Positions 827-9,367 of a DNA stretch of 9,678 bases are shown in pieces (position 1 is the first letter of the stretch; each line of letters opens with the position of its first letter). The stretch spans positions 1-9,678 of the IMG/VR virus record IMGVR_UViG_2534682162_000003. One strand, written 5' to 3'. The notes beneath the pieces were generated by a model that searched no databases, was not told the DNA's origin, and saw only the letters and a list, made by a program, of their open reading frames with translations. Source of the stretch: a virus. Lineage: Duplodnaviria; Heunggongvirae; Uroviricota; Caudoviricetes. The position numbers and the translations under genes were made by a program.

Positions 827-3274
827 TTAACCGTCATGCATCATGCTGGCACGGGCGCGCGCACGTTTATCCCGCTCGTATTTTTCGAGCGCATCCTGTA
901 ACTGGCGGTCGAGCTGAGTCCCCGGCGCAGTACCGCCCGTCAGACTGATGTGATATTCGTTTTTACTCTGGTCCACATAAGAGCGGCCAGCCGGTGCCGT
1001 AACCGGCTGATAAGCCTGATAGCCTGCATAAGAGCTGGTCGCCGGAATATAACCACCGGTGCCATACGTGGCGGCATGAGTTCTGGCGGCGGTCTGGTCA
1101 AGCGTGCCTGACTCTTTGTTGATAACACCGAGTTTTTCCAGTACCCAGTCAATACCGCTGCGCAGTTTGTTGAACGCATTAAGCGGCAGCATCAACGCGT
1201 CAGCCAGTGCCTGCCCGAACATGACGCCAGTATCACGGCAACGGTTCAGGGTGTCCTGGGTGGCTTTGACCGGGGCAATCAGGTTTTTAAACCACTGCCA
1301 CGCGGCCTGTAACTTTTCGCCCAGCCAGTCAAACACCGGCTTAAGTGGCGTGAACAGTTCCCCCACCGGCGCAAATGCCGCTTTCAGCCCTTCCATCACA
1401 CCGCCAAAGAATGCGCTGACAGGCTCCCAGTATTTACGGATAAGCAACGCCCCGGCGACAATGGCGGCCACCACGGCCACAACCGGCCAGCTAATCGCCC
1501 CGATGGCAGTCATAACAGCACTGCCAACCGTCGTGAAGATTGCCCCCATTGCGCCTGCTGCCACGATGATGGCATTGATGCCGGTGATAACCGGCCAGGC
1601 TACAAGACCAATGGCACCGATGATGCCAGTAAGCGCCAGCGCGCCACCGGCAATTAGGCCAATGGTTGACGCCAGTGATTTGTTTTTCTGGATCCAGCCG
1701 TCGAGTTTTAACACATACTTTGTGGCCGTCTGCGTGAGCTTACGCAGTGCGCCTTCCTGCTGGTCAAACAGGTCAGTCCCCACCGCTTCATAAGCGGACT
1801 GAAACTCCTTAAAGTCACCGCCGAGGTTGTCCTGCATGATTTTAACCAGCTCTTCCGTTTTACCGTCTGAGGCTTTCAGTGTGGCGGTCAGCTTATCCAG
1901 TTTTCCGCTTGCAGCCGCTGCCAGTAAAACGTTCGCTGATTTCAGGGCTTCCTCACCAAAAATGGTTTTAAGGTATTCCCCCTTCTGAGACGTTCCCAGC
2001 TTGTGTTTATCAAAGCTGGCCTGAATCTCTTTCAGAATGGTGAACAACGGACGCATATTTCCCTTTTTGTCCGAGGTTTTAACGCCAAGCTCTTTGAGTG
2101 CATCCCATGCTTTTCCAGTCGGTGCCTGTAATCGGGTGACAACGGCACTGCCACCCGTACCCGCCATTGACCCCCTGATGTTATTGTCATGCAGCACACC
2201 TGTCATGGCCGCTGCCTGTTCAAGACTTACACCTGCCGTCCTCGCAACCGGACCGAGGTAAGTCAGTGCATCACTGAGTCCCTGAAAATCAGCCGCCGAC
2301 TTATTCATCGTTGCCGACAACACGTCGCCCACATGGCTGACATCATCATTTGACAGTTGAAAGGATGCCTTAGTCCCCAGCAACAGTTGCGCGTTTTCTT
2401 CCATCGACCGCTGATTCGCCAGTGCCATATTCAGCGTGACCGGCGTTGCCGCCTGAATAGCCGCAGCATCTCCACCCGCTTTCGCAATGATAATCTGCGC
2501 ACCGGCCGCATCATCCGCTGAGGCGGCGGTATTGTCGCCGAGCTGGCGCGCCTGTTTGCGGAGCGCGGCCATTTCGGCGGAATCTTTTGCCACACCGAGC
2601 ACGGCCTGCAATTCTGAGTTTTTCTGCGCAAACTCATAACCGGGCATCAGCAGCTTAACTCCGGCCATCGTTCCCGCCGCCGCAATCCCCACACCGGCAG
2701 CGCCCACTGAGGCCATATTTCCGGCAAGTTCTTTTCCTGCCTGATAACGCTGTTTGACTGCGTTAAGTTTTGCCTGTTGTGCACTGACACGCGCCAGCGC
2801 GTCACGCTGCCGGTTAAGCTGTGCGGTGGTTTCACTGATACGGTTTTTCAGCCCCTGCTCATCATGTGCAAGATTGCGGGTATTAATTCCCACAGCGGCC
2901 AGTTCCCGCTGCTGGCGTTTAACGGAATCCGTCAGGCGGTTATATTTCGCCTGTAAGTCCTCCGCCGCACGCTTTGCGGATTCCAGCACTTTCGCCTGAG
3001 CACGGGTCGGACGTTCAGTGTTTTTAAACTGTGTGGCAAGTGCTTCGGCCTCCTGCCGTGCCTTTTCAAGTGCATGACCAGTCACGGCAAGCTGTGCACT
3101 GGTCTTGCGAAATCCCTCAATACGGGATGCGTGACCATTCAGCTCGCGCAGTGATTTTTGTGTTTCCCGGATATCCCCCGACAGCGACTTACTCGCTGTG
3201 CGGATGGATTTAAACGGGCGGGATGCCTGGTCAACAGCCCTGAGCAATACCTGTAATTTTACATTGTTACTCAT
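827..3274 (-). CDS. T: Tail tape measure protein (P2 gpT-like)
   Basis: 815-aa ORF. N-terminal region is charged and Ala/Gln/Arg-rich (coiled-coil character), followed by long Gly/Ala-rich hydrophobic segments (e.g. LTGIIGAIGLVAWPVITGINAIIVAAGAMGAIF...), typical of tape measure proteins. Located directly downstream of the E/E' chaperone pair. Confidence 0.9.
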   Translation of the reverse strand: MSNNVKLQVLLRAVDQASRPFKSIRTASKSLSGDIRETQKSLRELNGHASRIEGFRKTSAQLAVTGHALEKARQEAEALATQFKNTERPTRAQAKVLESAKRAAEDLQAKYNRLTDSVKRQQRELAAVGINTRNLAHDEQGLKNRISETTAQLNRQRDALARVSAQQAKLNAVKQRYQAGKELAGNMASVGAAGVGIAAAGTMAGVKLLMPGYEFAQKNSELQAVLGVAKDSAEMAALRKQARQLGDNTAASADDAAGAQIIIAKAGGDAAAIQAATPVTLNMALANQRSMEENAQLLLGTKASFQLSNDDVSHVGDVLSATMNKSAADFQGLSDALTYLGPVARTAGVSLEQAAAMTGVLHDNNIRGSMAGTGGSAVVTRLQAPTGKAWDALKELGVKTSDKKGNMRPLFTILKEIQASFDKHKLGTSQKGEYLKTIFGEEALKSANVLLAAAASGKLDKLTATLKASDGKTEELVKIMQDNLGGDFKEFQSAYEAVGTDLFDQQEGALRKLTQTATKYVLKLDGWIQKNKSLASTIGLIAGGALALTGIIGAIGLVAWPVITGINAIIVAAGAMGAIFTTVGSAVMTAIGAISWPVVAVVAAIVAGALLIRKYWEPVSAFFGGVMEGLKAAFAPVGELFTPLKPVFDWLGEKLQAAWQWFKNLIAPVKATQDTLNRCRDTGVMFGQALADALMLPLNAFNKLRSGIDWVLEKLGVINKESGTLDQTAARTHAATYGTGGYIPATSSYAGYQAYQPVTAPAGRSYVDQSKNEYHISLTGGTAPGTQLDRQLQDALEKYERDKRARARASMMHDG

Positions 3275-3694
3275 TCGTGTTTCCGCTTCGCTGGAGCGCC
3301 TTTTCGCGCCATGTGATGAGTTCGGTCAGGCTCATGGGATACAGTTCTGATGGCGGCCAGTGAAATATCACTGCCACATCCGCCATCAGGTCATCTACCG
3401 ACAGATTTTTCGGAAACGTCACTGCACCGAGTTCGGCGACAAAAAACCGACCACCTTACCGGCCAGTTCCACAAGGTCAGGCAGTTCCATCGCGGCGACT
3501 TCCTGCTCGGTCAGCATCGGTGCCGTCATGCGCGGCAGCACCTTAATAAGTGCATCGACTTCGGAGTGTGCGACCGAAGCCAGACTGACACCGCGAAGCG
3601 TCCCGGCATTAGGTTTCATCAGCGTGACCTGTTTGATAACCTGCTCACCACGTTTGACCGGATTTTCCAGGGTAATCACATTTTCTTTGTTCAT
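3267..3694 (-). CDS. E': Tail assembly chaperone E+E' fusion made by programmed -1 ribosomal frameshift
   Basis: Hand-translated: after a -1 slip on T TTT TTG, the frame stays open for 58 codons (VAELGAVTFPKNLSVDDLMADVAVIFHWPPSELYPMSLTELITWREKALQRSGNTNE) and ends at TAA 3269..3267, overlapping the T start codon (3274..3272). This is the P2 arrangement, analogous to lambda G/GT. Confidence 0.65.
3419..3694 (-). CDS. E: Tail assembly chaperone E (P2 gpE-like)
   Basis: 91-aa ORF between FII and T. Contains the T TTT TTG slippery heptamer near its 3' end. Confidence 0.85.
   Translation of the reverse strand: MNKENVITLENPVKRGEQVIKQVTLMKPNAGTLRGVSLASVAHSEVDALIKVLPRMTAPMLTEQEVAAMELPDLVELAGKVVGFLSPNSVQ
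3440..3446 (-). promoter_or_regulatory. -1 frameshift slippery heptamer T TTT TTG (minus strand)
   Basis: Plus strand 3440..3448 reads caaaaaacc, so the minus strand reads ggttttttg. In the E reading frame this gives GGT TTT TTG, the canonical X XXY YYZ layout. Confidence 0.65.
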
Positions 3695-3750: not shown

Positions 3751-4269
3751 TCACAGGCCGATATTGCGGCGGTGTTGCTCCAGCCGGTCGACGCCGTTCA
3801 CCTTCTCAATCATGTTGATGGTGTCGATTTCGACCAGCTCCTTACCGTCCATCGTCAGCCGGAAATAGGTGCAGACCACGGAGATTTTCGACTCGGTGTC
3901 TTCTCCCTGTTTGCCCTCGCCGGTGTCGATTTCTTTCTGACGTCCACGCATGACCACCTCGACGGCCACCGTTTCGCCGGTATCGTCACGCTGGTAAGAG
4001 CCTGCAAAACGAATCGGTACGGCATCCACACCGGTTGCGGCGTAAAGCTCCCAGATAACCGAATCCGGGAAGCCCCCGAGCGACCACTCCATTGACAGCG
4101 CATCGTCATCAAGGCCGAGGTCTACCGGTGCGCTGCCGTTCATCCCCGCACCGCGATAGTTTTCGAGCTTACGGGTCAGTTTTGGTAGCGTGACGGACTT
4201 CGCGACGCCCTGATAGCTGTAGCCGTTCAGAAAGACGTTCATTAACTTGAGTTTGCGCGGCATTGCCAT
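3751..4269 (-). CDS. FII: Tail tube protein (P2 gpFII-like)
   Basis: 172-aa ORF immediately downstream of the sheath gene. AGGAG Shine-Dalgarno at 4273..4277 (minus strand), overlapping the FI stop. Confidence 0.9.
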   Translation of the reverse strand: MAMPRKLKLMNVFLNGYSYQGVAKSVTLPKLTRKLENYRGAGMNGSAPVDLGLDDDALSMEWSLGGFPDSVIWELYAATGVDAVPIRFAGSYQRDDTGETVAVEVVMRGRQKEIDTGEGKQGEDTESKISVVCTYFRLTMDGKELVEIDTINMIEKVNGVDRLEQHRRNIGL

Positions 4270-4281
4270 CGGTCAGGCTCC

Positions 4282-5472
4282 TTAATTGCTGTTAACCGAG
4301 GTGACCAGATTTGCCAGGTATTTATCGGTAATACGCTGGCGCAGGGTCAGGTTTTCAAGAGGAGGCACCGGTGTATAGTCGTAGTCGATATACAGTTTTC
4401 CGGCCTTGAGGGTTTCCGCATCGTTGGATTCTTCGCTGAACCAGCAGGTCGCATCCACGATATAGCCGTTTGTTTTCAGCTCACGGAATTTGGCATTGAT
4501 GCCGTCAACGATGTCGCGAATCAGCGTTGCGGTGATGGGCTTGTCCACCGCCCACATGTGCGCCTCAGCCATCGTGTCGGCCAGCACCTGCGCGGTGCGG
4601 GTGTAGTTTTCAAAGAGGAACAGCGGGTCATCAGAGCAGGTACGGTTACCCCAGAAGCGGAAACCGTCGCGGCGAATCAGCGTAGTGACGCCTGACTCGT
4701 TAAGCAGGTCAGCATCGGTGCCGGACTCCTGCAAGTCCCAGAATACAGATGCGCTGATGCCGGTAACACCGTTCACCCCGACATTGGACAGCGTTTTATG
4801 CCAGCCCTGCTCCTGGTCGATTTTGGCACGCAGCCCCAGTGCACGGGCGGTTGCATACGCGGTGGCGGTGGTACTGGTGACCGTATCCCATGCGAGGAAA
4901 TCCGGCCAGATGACCATCAGCTCACGCTGGCTGAAATTCTGGCGGTAAGCTTTCACCTCGGAAATGGTTTTACAGCCCCATGCGCTGATATACCCGAAAG
5001 CGCGCAACTTCTGACAGACTGATGCCAGTGCAACAGCCACCTCTTTGGTATCCAGCCCCGGCACACCGAGAATACGCGGTTTAACACCGGTTACCGACTC
5101 CGCCGCCAGCAGGGCTTTCAGTCCGGTGTACTGGCCGTTTTCGTCGGTGGTGCCGATGATATTGGAAACGGTCTGCGCGAGTTTCGTTTCTTCGTCGTCG
5201 CCGGTTCCGTCTTCCACGCGCACGACAACGGTGACCGGTTTTGACTGGTCAGCGATGGCCTGCAACGATGCCGCCAGCGTGCCTTTTTTACCGGCCTTTG
5301 CAATGGCGCTCTGCACATTGGTAATCAGCACAGGTTTATTGAGGGGGAAGGTTTCCGCATCCGCATCGCTGGCCGTGCAGACCATGCCGACAATGGCAGT
5401 GGATACGGTGGAAATGACGCGGGTGCCGTCGTTAATCTCCAGCACCTGCACGCCGTGATGATAGTCACTCAT
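4282..5472 (-). CDS. FI: Contractile tail sheath protein (P2 gpFI-like)
   Basis: 396-aa ORF, first gene of the FI-FII-E-T-U-D block. GGAG Shine-Dalgarno at 5480..5483 (minus strand). Confidence 0.9.
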   Translation of the reverse strand: MSDYHHGVQVLEINDGTRVISTVSTAIVGMVCTASDADAETFPLNKPVLITNVQSAIAKAGKKGTLAASLQAIADQSKPVTVVVRVEDGTGDDEETKLAQTVSNIIGTTDENGQYTGLKALLAAESVTGVKPRILGVPGLDTKEVAVALASVCQKLRAFGYISAWGCKTISEVKAYRQNFSQRELMVIWPDFLAWDTVTSTTATAYATARALGLRAKIDQEQGWHKTLSNVGVNGVTGISASVFWDLQESGTDADLLNESGVTTLIRRDGFRFWGNRTCSDDPLFLFENYTRTAQVLADTMAEAHMWAVDKPITATLIRDIVDGINAKFRELKTNGYIVDATCWFSEESNDAETLKAGKLYIDYDYTPVPPLENLTLRQRITDKYLANLVTSVNSN

Positions 5473-5561
5473 CCGTTTAACTCCGTGGTTAATGGGTGCA
5501 ACTATTTTCTGTTGTGCAGTGCATGAGACGCTATTTGACCTGACTGGTCAGTGGATGAAAC
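5473..5561 (-). promoter_or_regulatory. Probable late promoter region for the FI-FII-E-T-U-D operon (P_F equivalent)
   Basis: About 90 bp lies between the minus-strand terminator and the FI start, and by synteny with P2 this is where the activator-dependent late promoter should be. I found no clean TGT-N12-ACA dyad by eye; only a short CTGAC-tg-GTCAG dyad at 5540..5551. Confidence 0.3.
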
Positions 5562-5596
5562 AACAGATAAAGAAAAGGCGGGCAATTCGCCCGCCT
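5562..5596 (-). terminator. Rho-independent terminator on the minus strand
   Basis: 8-bp GC-rich stem (5576..5583 aggcgggc pairing with 5589..5596 gcccgcct) with a 5-nt loop. On the minus strand it is followed by TTTCTTTATCTG (5575..5564). Confidence 0.55.
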
Positions 5597-5625
5597 GTCC
5601 TGATTTGTACTCACTCATTTTCCGC

Positions 5626-5660
5626 CTGACAATTTACATAGCCCAAATGCTATCAAATCT
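5626..5660 (+). promoter_or_regulatory. Candidate sigma70-type promoter for the cargo gene
   Basis: -35-like cTGACA at 5626..5631 and an extended -10-like TGcTATCAA at 5648..5656, with a 19-bp spacer (longer than optimal). Identified by eye only. Confidence 0.25.
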
Positions 5661-5692
5661 GACAGTCTGCTTTGAGCGAAAAGCAGACTGTC
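5661..5692. repeat. Perfect 13-bp inverted repeat with 6-nt spacer (GACAGTCTGCTTT gagcga AAAGCAGACTGTC)
   Basis: Read directly from the sequence: 5661..5673 is the exact reverse complement of 5680..5692. Lies about 115 bp upstream of the cargo start and just downstream of the candidate promoter. Confidence 0.6.
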
Positions 5693-5808
5693 ACGCGTTG
5701 AAGTTAATTGTATTACTTAGATAAACACTATCATTTTCCTGACGTTAAGTTGTATCTTTGATAGGATTAAAAAACGTATAGATAGCTTATGCTACTGAGG
5801 GAATAAAA

Positions 5809-6618
5809 ATGACGAAAATTAGTGAACGATGGAAGCACAATGGCATTACTGAAGGTTATTGCAATATTTGTGGGAAATATGGCTTGCTCACAAAAGATCA
5901 TGTTCCTCCAAAGTGCGCCATAACCTTAGGCCCTGTTTTGCAGAAAACAGTTAGCGAATTTTTTGGTATTCAGGAACCAGTTAAACCATTAAATGCTAAA
6001 AATGGCTCTTATTTCAGAACCATTTGCAGCCACTGTAACAATAAGGTATTAGGTGGGCTCGATGTTGCAATTGAAAATGTAACAAAGTCCTTTAAAGAAC
6101 AGTTAAGTCGATATATGAATGGTATGAATGTATATCCATTCATTAGAATACCTTTTGATAGCATATCTTTCACTAAGGCTATGATTGGGCACGTGCTATC
6201 AGCAACTTCAGTTGAAGATTGTAAAAAAGAACCCGTAGATAGCCCCTTCTATACACCTTTAAAGGATTATGTTTTGGGTAAAAATTCAAGTTTTGAGGAA
6301 ACTCATGATATTTACTACTGGTTTTACCCACACAGAATGCACATATCCGCTCAAAGTGTAGCATTTATGAACGAAGGACATGTGGCATTTATTTGTGCTT
6401 TACATTTTTTCCCTATCGGTTTTATTATCACAATGAAAAATGAAGGAACATACCCTGCCCACTCTACAAAATTAGAACTTGAAGATAAATTCCTTACATT
6501 TAATATGACCTCTATAAATTATGAGTATACGACATTTCCATTTGTAAATCTTAAGGGAAACCAAATGTATGCGATAAGCAACGGTCATACTTGTGTGAGT
6601 TATCCAATAATTAAGTGA
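5809..6618 (+). CDS. Hypothetical protein with N-terminal HNH-like zinc-finger nuclease motif; candidate anti-phage defence/exclusion cargo
   Basis: 269-aa ORF with a GAGGGA Shine-Dalgarno 6 nt upstream of the ATG. The translation contains C18-x2-C21, D30-H31-V-P-P and C74-S-H-C77-N-N-K80, matching the CxxC...DHxxP...CxxCNxxK pattern of HNH/His-Me finger nucleases. The remaining ~190 aa are aromatic-rich with no motif I recognise. Confidence 0.75.
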   Translation: MTKISERWKHNGITEGYCNICGKYGLLTKDHVPPKCAITLGPVLQKTVSEFFGIQEPVKPLNAKNGSYFRTICSHCNNKVLGGLDVAIENVTKSFKEQLSRYMNGMNVYPFIRIPFDSISFTKAMIGHVLSATSVEDCKKEPVDSPFYTPLKDYVLGKNSSFEETHDIYYWFYPHRMHISAQSVAFMNEGHVAFICALHFFPIGFIITMKNEGTYPAHSTKLELEDKFLTFNMTSINYEYTTFPFVNLKGNQMYAISNGHTCVSYPIIK

Positions 6619-6672
6619 CGGCTAAATCATACAATCTACGCATGTTCACTTTCTACATATACCATCTATAAT

Positions 6673-6722
6673 GTCCGCTGTTGGCACAGAGCGGACTGTC
6701 AGATCAGGCTTTACTCTGTGCC
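6673..6722. repeat. Overlapping inverted repeats between the cargo stop and the G stop
   Basis: GTCCGCT (6673..6679) pairs with AGCGGAC (6690..6696); GGCACAGAG (6683..6691) pairs with CTCTGTGCC (6714..6722). Neither is followed by a clean U-tract on either strand. Confidence 0.4.
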
Positions 6723-6757
6723 ATAGATATGTAAGCTCACACCAGAGCTCATACAAC

Positions 6758-7285
6758 TTATTGCGGCATTTCCGGCCATTCGGGATTTGCAGGATCCACA
6801 CGACTGACCAGAACGCTGTAGCGTTCCCATCTTTCCAGTCTGCTACGCTCCTCCTCTGTTGCCATATTCAGCCTGACAGCGCGCTCCAGCGGCAAAATCA
6901 CGGATTCAGCATCTGCAAGAAGTCTGGCTTTCCTGTTTTCTGCCTGCTGTTGCAATTCCTCTGCCGTATAAATTCGTTTGATCACTGTGCCATCCTTAAA
7001 CATCCAGTTCCCTGAAATATCCGCCCGTCGGTTAGCAGTAATATCCGCCACTTCAACAACACTTAATCCATCCGGTCTGATAGCTGTCACATCCTTTTCC
7101 ACATAGCGGATGATATTATCTTTGTCGTACGCTATTTTTATCGTGTCATCAGCAAAATACTTTTGTTCTTCGTACCAGTTCTTACCATCTTCTGAAAAAA
7201 ACCAGACAACATCAAAGTCCTTTGTCAATTGATATTGTTCAACCGTTTTTGGATTACCCGCCGTAATATTTTTTAAATGCTGCAT
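6758..7285 (-). CDS. G: Tail fiber assembly chaperone (P2 gpG-like)
   Basis: 175-aa ORF starting 3 nt after the H stop. C-terminal half is GC-rich and conserved-looking; N-terminal half is AT-rich. Confidence 0.85.
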
Positions 7286-7288
7286 AAA

Positions 7289-9367
7289 TTATACCTGCGC
7301 CACGTTATACCATGTCCCGTTAATGTATTTCTGCACCGGTCTGTAATATACGCCACCAATGTTATCGGCAGAGTTTGAGCCGGTATCCTGAACAATAATG
7401 CCGGTATATACACACCCGGACGGTGCCTGATGTGTCCATGTCATGCCATTGTTCGCAGGTTTGTATGTGGCGGCACCACCAAGCCGGATATCCCGGACAT
7501 AGCGGGAGTCAAAATTGCTGAAATTTGATGGTATCACCTGCCCGGTAACCCGTAGTGCATCAGACTTAAGCGTCATCAGGTCTTTTGTTGTGCTGCCAGA
7601 CCTGATGCGCCATTTAAAATATTCATTGCCATTATCACCAGTTTCAAACCACATGTATGAGTCAGAATCAGCATCTGAATCATTTTTAAATCCAATTTTC
7701 GCCCAGTCAGTGTTTCTTTCCCAAATCAGGAAGGCATCATTGATAAATTTTATGCTGCCTGACATGCTTCCGCCTGATAATGCCAGAGCAAGAATATCCG
7801 CAGGTGTTGGCTTTCGTGATGTGGTATAAAACTCTGACCAGTCAGCCTCAAATCCATACCCATCACGTGCCGACCTGTAAAAAATCCCCCTGTTTTTATA
7901 ATCCACAAGAAACTGCATTGCCGGACAACTTCCCTCACCCGTGTAAAAATGCAGCACCATTTTTGATGCTCCGCCATCCTGTGCACAATAAGCACCACTG
8001 TCCCAGTTCCATCCTACCGCTTTATTATTTGCAACCGTATTTCCTGTTTTCCCTAATGCAAAAGCCGGTTGCTTATTTTTCGTATTGTAGTCGCGTCGCC
8101 AGCCCGGCGCATAATCAGCTCCGTGATTGATATACGTGAATTGCGCACTGGTGGTACCACCACCGCTTGATGTACTCGGAGTGGTCACACGAATGGTCAT
8201 TGCAGCTTTAACGCCCATAACCTCAATCACGCAACCTGCAAGATGAATAGTCCCACAGTCAGTATCGGTAATAATTTTGTTATTACCGTATGACCAGGAA
8301 CACTTGCACATCCAGTAGGGATGATTAAAGGCTCCCTGAGACTCTAGCCAGTCAATAAACTGAGCGGTTGTCCAGTTTCCGGCGTCAGTGCTCAAAGCAC
8401 CGCTATAAGCACGACAGGCACCGATATTTTTCGTGAAAGTATCCTTTCCCGGAATATCCGCACCGTTCTGATCTTTCTGAAGACGTTTTTCAGCATTGTC
8501 ATAGGCAGACTTCACCGCTTTTGGTGTTGCCGCAAGCGTTTCAGAATCGCTGTTGGTGGCGCTACTGAGCTGGACAAGACCTTTTCGCGCTGTGGTGGCA
8601 TCCTGTGCAGTGTATTTCCCGTTAGCAAGGTCATACGCTGTCTTAACCGCCTTTGGCGTTGCCGCAAGCGTTTCAGAATCGCTGTTGGTGACGCTACTTA
8701 GCTGGACAAGGCCTTTTCGCGCGGTGGTGGCGTCCTGTGCGGTATATTTCCCGTTAGCAAGGTCATACGCGGCCTTTACCGCTTTCGGCGTTGCGGCCAG
8801 TGTTTCAGACGTGCTGTTGGTCGCACTGCTTAACTGAGTAAAACCTTTTGCGGTCAGCGAGGCGTCCGGGTGACGTCGTGACTGTTCGTGCTCTGCAATT
8901 TTGTCATCAACGTAATCCTGCGTCGCCATCACCGTTGTGGTGTCAATGGTCAGCTCCACTGAGGCCACACTGCTGACGATGATGACCATACGGCAGGTCT
9001 GCGAACGCCCTGAGCCTTCGGCAAGGGCAGGCTTATAACTTTCGGCCATGTTCGCCACGGCAATTAACGTTCCCGCATCATCGTACAGGCCAAGCTCACG
9101 CATCCAGAAACCGCCCACCTCCGGCGGAATAACCAGCTCTGCGATAATATAATTACTGTTTCGTTTGTCCTGGCTGATTTTGTTCAGCGCATGTCGCCAG
9201 ACTTCGTGGATAAGCCCGGTCTGTCCGGCATCCGGGACAGGCAATTTACCACCGCCATCCCCGACGGCCATCGTGGTAATGTTGACCTTCCGCCCTCCCG
9301 GCGCGGTTGCCGCTGCCAGCTTTGCTGCACCGGCAGTGGTGATAACGGTTCTGAATTTTGTGCTCAT
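7289..9367 (-). CDS. H: Tail fiber protein (P2 gpH-like)
   Basis: 692-aa ORF. The N-terminus (MSTKFRTVITTAGAAKLAAATAPGG...) resembles what I recall of P2 gpH. Contains three tandem 44-aa repeats. The C-terminal ~350 aa are lower in GC and Cys/Trp/Tyr-rich, consistent with a receptor-binding domain. Confidence 0.9.
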   Translation of the reverse strand: MSTKFRTVITTAGAAKLAAATAPGGRKVNITTMAVGDGGGKLPVPDAGQTGLIHEVWRHALNKISQDKRNSNYIIAELVIPPEVGGFWMRELGLYDDAGTLIAVANMAESYKPALAEGSGRSQTCRMVIIVSSVASVELTIDTTTVMATQDYVDDKIAEHEQSRRHPDASLTAKGFTQLSSATNSTSETLAATPKAVKAAYDLANGKYTAQDATTARKGLVQLSSVTNSDSETLAATPKAVKTAYDLANGKYTAQDATTARKGLVQLSSATNSDSETLAATPKAVKSAYDNAEKRLQKDQNGADIPGKDTFTKNIGACRAYSGALSTDAGNWTTAQFIDWLESQGAFNHPYWMCKCSWSYGNNKIITDTDCGTIHLAGCVIEVMGVKAAMTIRVTTPSTSSGGGTTSAQFTYINHGADYAPGWRRDYNTKNKQPAFALGKTGNTVANNKAVGWNWDSGAYCAQDGGASKMVLHFYTGEGSCPAMQFLVDYKNRGIFYRSARDGYGFEADWSEFYTTSRKPTPADILALALSGGSMSGSIKFINDAFLIWERNTDWAKIGFKNDSDADSDSYMWFETGDNGNEYFKWRIRSGSTTKDLMTLKSDALRVTGQVIPSNFSNFDSRYVRDIRLGGAATYKPANNGMTWTHQAPSGCVYTGIIVQDTGSNSADNIGGVYYRPVQKYINGTWYNVAQV
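8490..8880. repeat. Tandem 132-bp repeats (three copies plus a partial) inside H
   Basis: Repeat units begin at about 8526, 8658 and 8790 (period 132 bp), with a degenerate partial copy near 8490. They encode the 44-aa repeat LSSxTNSxSETLAATPKAVKxAYDLANGKYTAQDATTARKG. Confidence 0.85.

What the first reader, a model, noticed from the sequence alone, without database searches (positions are those of the whole stretch)
5809..6618. Cargo protein pairs an HNH-like zinc-finger nuclease motif with an unrecognised C-terminal domain
The translation contains C18-N-I-C21, then D30-H31-V-P-P, then C74-S-H-C77-N78-N-K80. The pattern CxxC...DHxxP...CxxCNxxK is the hallmark of HNH (His-Me finger) endonucleases: a four-cysteine zinc ligand set, a catalytic His preceded by Asp, and a metal-binding Asn or His after the second CxxC. 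The DH-to-second-CxxC spacing (about 43 aa) is longer than in minimal HNH domains, suggesting an insertion. Residues ~90-269 are aromatic-rich (YYWFYPHRMH, HFFPIGFII) with no motif I can name, and could be a sensor or regulatory domain. A lone nuclease with no obvious immunity partner points to an abortive-infection or triggered-effector mechanism.
Basis: partly seen in the sequence, partly recalled or inferred. Interest (0 to 1): 0.75.

Follow-up and report, generated by a model that had tools for sequence, protein, structure and literature searches.

The report
Lone HNH-type nuclease prophage cargo gene
A single foreign gene in the tail region of a P2-like prophage encodes a zinc-stabilised HNH-type nuclease fused to a conserved domain of unknown fold; it belongs to a large unnamed family carried at the cargo sites where phages, satellites and integrons keep anti-phage genes, but no defence activity has been shown for it.

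Summary
All four Cys, D30, H31 and N77 are 96-100% conserved in 144 diverse relatives.

A third invariant motif (G127-H128) extends the core. The C-terminal half is more constrained than the N-half.

The gene is a lone 1033-bp low-GC cassette at the P2 Z/fun hotspot. Near-identical copies sit in lambdoid prophages and plasmids. Relatives sit in the P4 int-psu hotspot, an inovirus, integron arrays and defence islands. No partner gene is conserved.

DefensePredictor scored a 53%-identical E. coli paralogue as defensive, but it failed against 24 phages.

Verdict: a new variant of a known nuclease kind, a plausible but unproven single-gene defence.

The parts
5809..6618 (+). CDS, 269 aa (identical to RefSeq WP_000161640.1). 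Single-domain-like protein of a large unnamed family, PHROG 21495, labelled 'chaperonin' or 'metal-binding protein' by NCBI.
5854..5910 (+). Motif I, residues G16-P34: G-x-C18-x-I-C21 ... L27-x-x-D30-H31-V-P-P. It holds the first zinc CxxC and the putative catalytic Asp-His at the C-terminal end of predicted strand 24-32.
   Evidence: HNH_5 profile positions 1-21 align here.
5920..6000 (+). Family-specific insertion, about residues 38-64, with predicted helix 42-51. It lies between the DH strand and the second strand of the HNH core and is the most variable block.
6004..6063 (+). Motif II, residues G66-D85: predicted strand 67-73 ending in C73, then C76-N77 at the start of helix 74-80, then L81-G82 and D85. 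It holds the second zinc CxxC and the putative metal-binding Asn.
6175..6204 (+). Motif III, residues 123-132, (R/K)-A-x-x-G127-H128-x-L-(S/A)-A in predicted helix 118-131. G127 is invariant and H128 is 99% conserved. Probably part of the active site (inferred).
6214..6615 (+). C-terminal beta-rich half, residues about 136-269, with conserved W171, Y173-P174, F200-x-P202 and P244. No match to any Pfam model or solved structure. Its dN is lower than that of the N-half.
5797..5801 (+). Shine-Dalgarno-like GAGGG, 7-8 nt upstream of the ATG.
   Evidence: read from the sequence
5664..6696 (+). The 1033-bp mobile cassette that carries the gene. The same segment occurs with unrelated flanks at 99.5-99.8% identity in lambdoid prophages and a plasmid, and at about 92-94% in Kluyvera and Erwinia chromosomes.
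5660..5693 (.). Left boundary hairpin: a perfect 14-bp stem with a 6-nt loop (-23.3 kcal/mol, z -5.2). It is the left arm of the inverted repeat that flanks the cargo.
   Evidence: The homologous region is annotated 'right inverted repeat' in AJ512683.
6673..6704 (.). Right boundary: a weak hairpin (GTCCGCT...AGCGGAC) and the right arm of the inverted repeat.

Best explanation
The gene encodes a self-contained, single-polypeptide metal-dependent nuclease of the His-Me finger (HNH) superfamily. Its closest Pfam model is HNH_5.

Proposed anatomy:
- A Cys4 zinc site (C18, C21, C73, C76) staples the two halves of a beta-beta-alpha core.
- H31, at the end of the first strand, is the general base.
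- D30 and N77, at the start of the helix, hold the catalytic divalent metal.
- A family-specific insertion of about 22-27 residues sits between the strands.
- D85 and the invariant G127-H128 helix probably complete the active site.
- The tightly packed C-terminal beta-rich half has no known relative and is likely to gate or direct the nuclease.

The gene needs no partner. It travels as one-gene cargo with its own expression signals, and it is oriented against the late tail operons, as is usual for genes expressed from a prophage.

The most likely role is protection of the lysogen against other phages or mobile DNA, through cleavage of nucleic acid triggered or targeted by the C-terminal domain.

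Shown here: the gene, the motif conservation, the homology to HNH_5, the absence of a partner, and the cargo and defence-hotspot contexts.

Inferred: nuclease activity, the residue roles, the role of the C-terminal half, and the defence function.
For: HNH assignment:
- 81 of 144 members hit PF14279 at E<=0.1.
- P0191 scores 27.9 bits over profile positions 1-45, and P0192 scores 27.6 bits. Both reach the 27.5-bit cut-off.
- The query with residues 38-64 deleted scores 21.8 bits (E 1.8e-4) over profile positions 1-43/56.
- hhalign against a Septu PtuB gives 76.8% probability and aligns both motif halves.
- The four Cys, D30, H31, N77, D85, G127 and H128 are 96-100% conserved.
- The AF2 model has pLDDT 87.2 and pTM 0.88. 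Strand 24-32 ends in DH, strand 67-73 ends in C73, and helix 74-80 starts with C76-N77.

Real, constrained gene:
- dN/dS is 0.06-0.19.
- 1804 clusters at 50% identity match at E<=1e-3, nearly all of them full-length proteins of about 270 aa.

Stand-alone: no conserved neighbour in 80 loci, and no informative domain fusions.

Defence-type context:
- P2 Z/fun, a hotspot described in PMC9519451 and PMC13586616.
- The P4 int-psu hotspot (L006).
- Integron cassette arrays (L026, L008).
- An inovirus, and lambdoid moron sites.
- E. coli islands with SLATT+SMODS and DS-13.
- Neighbours include a CBASS cyclase and effector, AbiD, PD-T4-2, AbiTii, HerA and NsnAB.
- DefensePredictor log-odds are 7.5 and 8.4 for two E. 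coli homologues.
Against: - The query alone does not reach any Pfam threshold (11.6 bits).
- No PADLOC v2 or NCBIfam model matches it.
- Fold searches with the full model and with an N-terminal model found no significant HNH structure.
- Comparison with a PtuB profile gave only 25% probability.
- The one experimental test of a family member was negative. WP_001609855.1, 53% identical, was expressed from pBAD and challenged with 24 coliphages; it is marked defensive = FALSE.
- Neighbours are dominated by integrases and transposases rather than defence genes. The context therefore proves mobility more firmly than it proves immunity.
- The C-terminal half is more conserved than the nuclease half, which is unusual for a phage-sensing surface.
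Confidence: 0.5

Rival explanations
1. It is a modification-dependent (Type IV-like) restriction nuclease in the manner of prophage-encoded McrA. The HNH core cuts DNA directly, and the C-terminal domain reads a base modification that the host lacks. This would explain why no immunity partner is needed, and it would be direct restriction rather than abortive infection.
For: It is a single gene with no partner. It is an HNH core plus a separate conserved domain. It is prophage-borne. The conserved C-half fits recognition of an invariant chemical feature better than recognition of a variable phage protein.
Confidence: 0.15
2. It is a selfish element. The HNH protein would be a homing-type or mobility endonuclease that spreads its own hairpin-bounded cassette, with no benefit to the host.
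For: The cassette has sharp, recurring boundaries at hairpins (5664/6696) in at least five unrelated contexts at up to 99.8% identity. HNH is a common homing-endonuclease fold (established knowledge). The defence assay on the paralogue was negative.
Against: Flanking inverted repeats exist only around the E. coli cassette type, not around other family members. Insertion sites are unrelated, so there is no conserved homing site. Other members ride on integron attC sites, the P4 hotspot or serine-recombinase islands, which have their own mobility enzymes. Purifying selection is strong over the whole length across many phyla.
Confidence: 0.1
3. It is not a nuclease. The Cys4 module would be a zinc-ribbon nucleic-acid or protein-binding domain, and the protein a regulator or other lysogenic-conversion factor that kept HNH-like residues for structural reasons.
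For: The query is below all Pfam thresholds. No fold match confirms a beta-beta-alpha-metal site. NCBI labels it only as 'metal-binding protein' or 'chaperonin'.
Against: The catalytic-type residues D30, H31 and N77 are 96-100% conserved over 144 clusters down to about 20% identity, together with D85 and H128. Inactivated HNH domains usually lose these residues (established knowledge). Nothing found here supports the 'chaperonin' label.
Confidence: 0.15
4. It is the toxin of an addiction (toxin-antitoxin-like) module that stabilises the prophage, plasmid or integron array, with a small unannotated antitoxin RNA or peptide inside the cassette.
For: It is a lone potentially toxic nuclease on mobile elements. 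It sits next to hokD in lambdoid prophages and among TA genes on a plasmid.
Against: Only the ORF and about 68 nt upstream are conserved between the 100% and the 78-79% nucleotide-identity versions. No Rfam match appears in 5300-6900. No conserved adjacent ORF exists.
Confidence: 0.05

Closest known systems
Pfam HNH_5 (PF14279), His-Me finger / HNH endonuclease clan
   Same: The CxxC ... (D/E)H-x-x-P ... CxxCN motif order is the same. Two natural family members reach the curated cut-off, and 81 of 144 give sub-threshold hits that cover profile positions 1-53 between them. The predicted strand-strand-helix order has His at the end of strand 1 and Asn at the start of the helix.
   Different: A 22-27-residue insertion splits the motif, so the query itself scores only 11.6 bits. 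An extra invariant GH motif lies 50 residues downstream. About 135 obligatory C-terminal residues have no known relative. The profile covers 56 positions of a 269-aa conserved unit.
Septu PtuB (HNH nuclease effector of the PtuA/PtuB anti-phage system; PADLOC PDLC00321)
   Same: It is the best defence-database relative. Four family members hit PtuB models (best E 5.4e-5). hhalign against one PtuB aligns GxCxIC..(D/E)H..PKG and C..CNN..L (76.8% probability).
   Different: Comparison with a PtuB profile drops to 25% probability, or 69% over motif II only. PtuB works with the PtuA ATPase, and no ATPase or any other partner is conserved here. The C-terminal parts are unrelated.
P2 Z/fun-locus cargo (fun, and three systems of Vassallo et al. 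2022) and P4 int-psu hotspot cargo (Rousset et al. 2022)
   Same: The chromosomal slot is the same, between sheath FI and tail-fibre assembly G, with the same opposite orientation and low GC. A relative occupies the P4 hotspot.
   Different: There is no sequence relationship to any of those systems, since no PADLOC hit was found. Its activity is untested.
Sirona and Nemetona (single-gene Vibrio cholerae integron-cassette defence systems described as distant His-Me/HNH relatives; bioRxiv 10.1101/2024.07.02.601686)
   Same: They are single-gene, small, HNH-related and integron-cassette borne. Members of this family are also integron cassettes in Vibrio and Plesiomonas.
   Different: Those proteins were linked by their authors to NinG (PF05766) and a type II restriction domain. 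Neither family appeared among the Pfam hits of 144 members here. The V. cholerae cluster of this family is rare.
DefensePredictor candidate PDP1 (WP_001609855.1, E. coli)
   Same: It is a true paralogue, 53% identical over the full length (E 9e-106). It was predicted to be a novel defence gene (log-odds 7.5).
   Different: It was tested and did not protect against the 24-phage panel (Table S6). It lies in a chromosomal island next to DS-13 and SLATT/SMODS genes rather than in a P2 prophage.

Membership tests
HNH / His-Me finger nucleases (Pfam HNH_5 PF14279) | The protein itself matches an HNH-clan profile at the curated threshold | tested here: not met
   The query scores 11.6 bits (E 0.29) over residues 18-35 only, against a cut-off of 27.5 bits.
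HNH / His-Me finger nucleases (Pfam HNH_5 PF14279) | Homology to the profile is established through the protein's own family (transitive) | tested here: met
   81 of 144 members hit at E<=0.1, best 1.9e-6. P0191 scores 27.9 bits and P0192 27.6 bits, both at or above the cut-off. The query with the insertion deleted scores 21.8 bits (E 1.8e-4) over profile positions 1-43/56.
HNH / His-Me finger nucleases (Pfam HNH_5 PF14279) | Catalytic His preceded by Asp/Glu at the C-terminal end of the first strand | tested here: met
   D30 is 96% and H31 100% conserved. They lie at the end of predicted strand 24-32.
HNH / His-Me finger nucleases (Pfam HNH_5 PF14279) | Metal-binding Asn/His on the helix that follows the second strand | tested here: met
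   N77 is 100% conserved, directly after C76 at the start of predicted helix 74-80.
HNH / His-Me finger nucleases (Pfam HNH_5 PF14279) | Structural Cys4 zinc site formed by two CxxC pairs | tested here: met
   C18, C21, C73 and C76 are 99-100% conserved. Zinc binding itself was not tested.
HNH / His-Me finger nucleases (Pfam HNH_5 PF14279) | Three-dimensional beta-beta-alpha-metal fold superposable on solved HNH domains | tested here: inconclusive
HNH / His-Me finger nucleases (Pfam HNH_5 PF14279) | Divalent-metal-dependent nuclease activity | not testable with these tools
   This needs purified protein.
Septu PtuB | Profile-level homology to PtuB | tested here: inconclusive
   hhalign gave 76.8% against a single PtuB, 25% against a profile of 35 PtuB sequences, and 69% over 18 columns after trimming.
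Septu PtuB | Adjacent PtuA ATPase partner | tested here: not met
   No conserved neighbour family was found in 80 loci. The window has no second cargo gene.
Known anti-phage defence systems (PADLOC-DB v2.0.0) | Match to a model of a known or candidate defence protein | tested here: not met
   The query has no hit at E<=10. Among 144 members there are only scattered weak hits to PtuB, PDC-M01B and Cas8c.
Anti-phage defence gene (generic) | Residence in defence hotspots or islands of mobile elements | tested here: met
   P2 Z/fun; P4 int-psu; integron arrays; E. coli islands with DS-13 and SLATT/SMODS; defence neighbours.
Anti-phage defence gene (generic) | Experimentally measured protection against phage | not testable with these tools
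   From the literature only: paralogue WP_001609855.1 is marked defensive = FALSE against 24 phages (PMC13092281 Table S6). The window's protein has not been tested.
Free-standing homing endonuclease | Same insertion site, with homologous flanks, wherever the gene occurs | tested here: not met
   Flanks are unrelated outside 5664-6696 in P2, lambdoid, plasmid, Kluyvera and Erwinia copies. None of the 80 genome-collection loci L010-L089 has P2 tail genes within 10 kb.
Sirona / Nemetona (integron His-Me defence cassettes) | Sequence homology to the published proteins | not tested
   Their sequences are not held in any accessible source. Only the authors' description was read.

The most novel reading that the evidence does not exclude
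This is an undescribed single-protein immune nuclease family. An HNH core is split by an insertion and welded to a C-terminal domain of novel fold that senses infection or foreign DNA. The family is old and widespread (about 1800 clusters at 50% identity, from Proteobacteria to Cyanobacteria, Bacillota and CPR). Every known cargo platform has captured it independently: integron cassettes, P2 Z/fun, the P4 hotspot, lambdoid moron sites, an inovirus and plasmids. The negative assay on the paralogue would then reflect a narrow or non-lytic-phage target, such as temperate phages, satellites or plasmids.
Probability: 0.35. Interest if true: 0.6.

Novelty: new variant of a known kind. Interest (0 to 1): 0.42.

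Why it matters
If it is active in defence, this would be a compact (269 aa) immune nuclease that needs no partner and has a sensor or regulatory domain of unknown fold. Such a protein is useful for understanding how a lone nuclease is kept harmless to its host. It is also a possible tool enzyme.

The family is common enough to matter for phage-host range:
- It matches in 229 of 5426 complete E. coli genomes.
- It is present in Klebsiella, Enterobacter, Serratia and Vibrio.

It is currently annotated as 'chaperonin', which nothing found here supports.

The gene also gives a clean example of one cassette moving at more than 99.5% identity between P2-like and lambdoid prophages and plasmids.

If it has no defence role, it is simply one more uncharacterised HNH moron.

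Tried and rejected
- PDB sequence-profile search: only a spurious dethiobiotin synthetase hit.
- PtuB profile-profile comparison: weak, at 25%. I therefore do not file the family under Septu.
- Domain fusions in longer family members: none informative.
- The hairpins as ends of an element mobilised by the protein itself. I rejected this as a family property, because flanking inverted repeats are absent around other members. The exact hairpin 25-mer occurs only in contigs that carry this cassette.
- Rfam scan for an antitoxin-like RNA: nothing.
- Promoter scan upstream of the ATG: no convincing sigma-70 match on the + strand.
- Literature. No paper cites the protein accessions. None of the described systems of the P2/P4 paper (PMC13586616) or of the integron-cassette screen (bioRxiv 2026.03.17.712381) matches this architecture. 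Nilsson 2004 (Z-region repeats) and Brenes & Laub 2025 are not held.
- The distal-gene 'control' for defence enrichment was not a valid control, because the distal genes also lie in defence islands. I could not count exact numbers of defence neighbours, because the tool lists only the top 25 families.
Full report
**Setting.** The window is the tail module of a P2-like (Peduovirus) prophage, read on the minus strand.
- The genes are gpD-like (333-812), tape measure T (827-3274), E/E' (3267-3694), tube FII (3751-4269), sheath FI (4282-5472), tail-fibre assembly G (6758-7285) and fibre H (7289-9367).
- Between FI and G, on the plus strand, lies one ORF, 5809-6618. Its GC content is 0.35-0.39, against about 0.55 in the tail genes.
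- This is the Z/fun position of P2. GenBank AJ512683 ('P2-EC58 proviral Z-region') annotates left and right inverted repeats around a different cargo gene at the same place.
- Vassallo et al. 2022 describe the locus as a second defence-enriched hotspot of P2-like phages (PMC9519451). PMC13586616 also names Z/fun as a P2 defence locus.

**The observation.**
- The ORF encodes 269 aa.
- The pattern is not chance. A regular expression for it matches 82 of 89 family ORFs. It matches 1 of 1403 unrelated ORFs in the fetched loci, and that one is a bona fide HNH protein.

**The family.**
- A word-indexed search found 93 relatives, all about 270 aa with full-length alignment. None had a Pfam annotation. 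NCBI names them 'chaperonin' or 'metal-binding protein'.
- An exhaustive HMMER profile search found 1804 clusters (50% identity) at E<=1e-3 and 356 at E<=1e-30. Again these were almost all full-length proteins of 260-300 aa.
- In 144 diverse representatives, the positions conserved at 90% or more are G16, C18, C21, L27, D30, H31, P33, P34, C73, C76, N77, L81, G82, D85, G127, H128, W171, P202 and P244.
- Conservation falls into three blocks: motif I (16-34), motif II (66-85) and motif III (123-132, with invariant G127 and H128 at 99%).
- The segment between motifs I and II (41-60) is the most variable part of the protein.
- The family occurs in Gamma- and Betaproteobacteria, Cyanobacteria, Nitrospirota, Planctomycetota, Bacteroidota, Bacillota and a CPR genome.
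- dN/dS against eight orthologues is 0.06-0.19. The C-terminal half has a lower dN than the N-terminal half in every comparison.

**Is it an HNH nuclease?**
- On its own the query is below threshold. HNH_5 (PF14279) scores 11.6 bits over residues 18-35 only.
- PADLOC and NCBIfam give nothing. PHROG 21495 has unknown function.
- At family level the signal is consistent. 24 of 35, and then 81 of 144, members hit HNH_5. A few also hit Endonuclease_7 and HNH.
- Two natural members reach the curated cut-off of 27.5 bits. P0191 scores 27.9 bits, aligned continuously from the first CxxC to the second (profile positions 1-45). P0192 scores 27.6 bits.
- Deleting residues 38-64 from the query raises its score to 21.8 bits (E 1.8e-4) over profile positions 1-43/56. 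A second deletion variant also matches PF01844.
- The DH-to-CxxC spacing is 34-60 residues in the family, with a mode of 41-43. In a Septu PtuB found in one of the loci it is 23.
- hhalign of the family against that PtuB aligns GxCxIC..(D/E)H..PKG and C..CNN..L, with a 22-column gap in between (76.8% probability).
- Against a profile of 35 PtuB relatives the probability falls to 25%. After trimming it is 69%, over motif II only. I therefore take PtuB as a distant cousin, not the parent family.

**Structure.**
- AlphaFold2 with the family alignment gives a confident single body (pLDDT 87.2, pTM 0.88).
- The element order is: strand 15-17, strand 24-32 (DH at its end), helix 42-51 (the insertion), strand 67-73 (ending in C73), helix 74-80 (starting C76-N77), long helix 85-103, strand 111-115, helix 118-131 (G127-H128). 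A beta-rich C-terminal half follows (166-264).
- This is the one-dimensional order expected of a beta-beta-alpha-metal finger.
- The three permitted fold searches did not confirm it in three dimensions:
  - Foldseek against the PDB gave a best E of 0.088.
- The same searches show that the C-terminal half has no recognisable relative among solved structures.
- The AlphaFold database library was not available, and model coordinates could not be inspected.

**Lone gene.**
- I called ORFs in 80 loci from a one-genome-per-species collection and compared the three neighbours on each side all-against-all. No partner family emerged. The largest neighbour cluster spans 4 loci.
- Longer family members carry no extra recognisable domain.
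- Between the E. coli cassette and versions at 78-79% nucleotide identity, only the ORF and about 68 nt upstream are conserved.
- Rfam finds nothing in 5300-6900.

**Where the family sits.**

| Context | Locus and call |
|---|---|
| Lambdoid prophages at mtfA, between the replication genes and hokD/nin | L149, L150 |
| 96-kb plasmid, beside IS26 and an integrase | L094 |
| P4-like satellite, between int and psu (the P4 hotspot of Rousset et al., PMC9122126) | L006 |
| End of a filamentous prophage | L003 |
| Beside the terminase of a lambda-like prophage; after the tail fibres of another; at the end of a P2-like remnant | |
| Island with two serine recombinases | L005 |
| Integron cassettes: VCR repeats flank the gene in Vibrio mimicus; 16-18 attC-like repeats in Plesiomonas, with HEPN_AbiU2 and SduA_C cassettes nearby | L026, L008 |
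| E. coli islands with SLATT+SMODS, a KAP NTPase and the validated DS-13 genes | L092, L093 |

- Among 148 immediate neighbours from 73 loci, the commonest Pfam family is Phage_integrase, followed by transposases and resolvases.
- PADLOC hits among those neighbours include a CBASS cyclase and effector, AbiD, PD-T4-2 A and B, PDC-S09, AbiTii, HerA and NsnAB.
- Genes 6.5-10 kb away also include defence proteins. That set therefore could not serve as a control.
- The context shows mobile, self-sufficient cargo that often keeps company with defence genes.

**What has been tested by others.**
- DefensePredictor (PMC13092281) lists two E. coli homologues, WP_001609855.1 and WP_187183634.1, as 'predicted novel defense gene', with log-odds of 7.5 and 8.4.
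- WP_001609855.1 is 53% identical to the window's protein over its whole length (E 9e-106).
- It was cloned under the working name PDP1 and challenged with 24 coliphages. Table S6 marks it defensive = FALSE.
- The authors note that non-validating candidates may need other phages, hosts or gene boundaries.
- No paper cites the accessions of the window's protein.
- Darracq et al. (bioRxiv 10.1101/2024.07.02.601686) validated two single-gene V. cholerae integron cassettes, Sirona and Nemetona. They describe these as distant His-Me/HNH relatives, similar to NinG and to a type II restriction domain.
- I could not obtain their sequences. NinG did not appear among the Pfam hits of 144 members, and this family's V. 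cholerae cluster is rare. A close relationship is therefore unlikely but not excluded.

**Mechanism.**
- The best-supported reading is a stand-alone, zinc-stabilised His-Me finger nuclease. H31 is the general base, D30 and N77 are metal ligands, and D85 and H128 are likely additional active-site residues.
- The conserved C-terminal domain would control or target the nuclease.
- Residue roles follow from established knowledge of HNH enzymes, for example the Asp-His...Asn arrangement of Cas9 HNH. They are inferred, not shown.
- A defence role is the most likely biology given the locations. It stands at roughly even odds because of the negative assay on the paralogue and the slow evolution of the putative sensor half.
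- The rivals are a modification-dependent restriction enzyme, a selfish mobility nuclease, a non-catalytic zinc-ribbon protein and an addiction toxin.
- The selfish reading loses weight because the flanking hairpins are peculiar to the E. coli cassette and absent around other family members.

**Verdict.** The insertion and the unknown C-terminal domain are real family features. The abortive-infection idea is unproven. This is a new variant of a known kind of enzyme in a well-known kind of cargo slot. It has been flagged by a machine-learning screen but is not validated. Interest is moderate.

Noticed in passing
window 5664-6696; L149 8856-9888; L094 6857-7884; L010 9862-10880; L011 9854-10888: The gene travels as a sharply bounded 1033-bp cassette. 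It is 99.5-99.8% identical in P2-like prophages, in lambdoid prophages (between the replication genes and hokD) and in a 96-kb plasmid, and about 92-94% identical in Kluyvera and Erwinia. Flanks are unrelated beyond the same two end points. No transposase lies inside and no target-site duplication was seen.
   Followed up: partly
window 5657-5693 and 6673-6704: The cassette ends are hairpins that share the terminal inverted repeat GTCCGCTTTG. The left one is a perfect 14-bp stem (-23.3 kcal/mol, z -5.2). The P2 backbone reads atctgac|cassette|tgtcagat, as if the cassette sat in the centre of a palindrome. P2 relatives with other cargo share sequence through the left hairpin (to about 5687-5692). 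The mechanism of exchange is unresolved. The exact 25-mer occurs only in viral contigs that carry this cassette.
   Followed up: partly
L026 555-1575; L008 7842-8987: Relatives of the protein are integron gene cassettes. They are flanked by VCR-type attC repeats in Vibrio mimicus. In Plesiomonas shigelloides they lie in an array of 16-18 attC-like repeats that also holds HEPN_AbiU2, SduA_C, Fic and NUDIX cassettes.
   Followed up: partly
family-wide: NCBI names many members 'chaperonin'. No evidence found here supports that name, and it looks like propagated misannotation.
   Followed up: no
window 5576-5596 (- strand): A strong terminator-like hairpin followed by a T run (AGGCGGGCGAATTGCCCGCC TTTTCTT, -20.1 kcal/mol) lies between the cargo and the sheath gene. 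It is presumably the end of the H-G late operon, ahead of the FI promoter.
   Followed up: no
L090 2787-4224; L094 10697-14035; L107 6888-10538: In some P2 remnants and on the plasmid, the cassette is linked to the same DUF2254 gene and BCCT transporter gene. In L107 about 3.7 kb of extra DNA separates the cassette from gene G. This suggests larger composite cargo blocks that are shared between a plasmid and prophages.
   Followed up: no
window 7289-9367 (- strand), about 8500-8850: Tail-fibre protein H carries three near-identical copies of a ~40-residue repeat (Phage_fiber_2, ...ATPKAVK.AYDLANGKYTAQDATTARKGLVQLSS.TNS.SETLA...) and a T4 gp37-like C-terminal region.
   Followed up: no
window 3267-3694 (- strand): The overlapping ORFs 3419-3694 (91 aa) and 3267-3422 (51 aa) have the layout of the P2 E / E+E' tail-chaperone pair, which is made by programmed frameshifting. 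This was not examined.
   Followed up: no
L092 9627-10876: The E. coli paralogue WP_001609855.1 lies directly upstream of WP_000387046.1 and WP_001022716.1, which are DS-13, validated by DefensePredictor. A SLATT + SMODS pair lies within about 1.3 kb upstream of it. The untested possibility is that the paralogue works with, or is redundant to, these neighbours.
   Followed up: no
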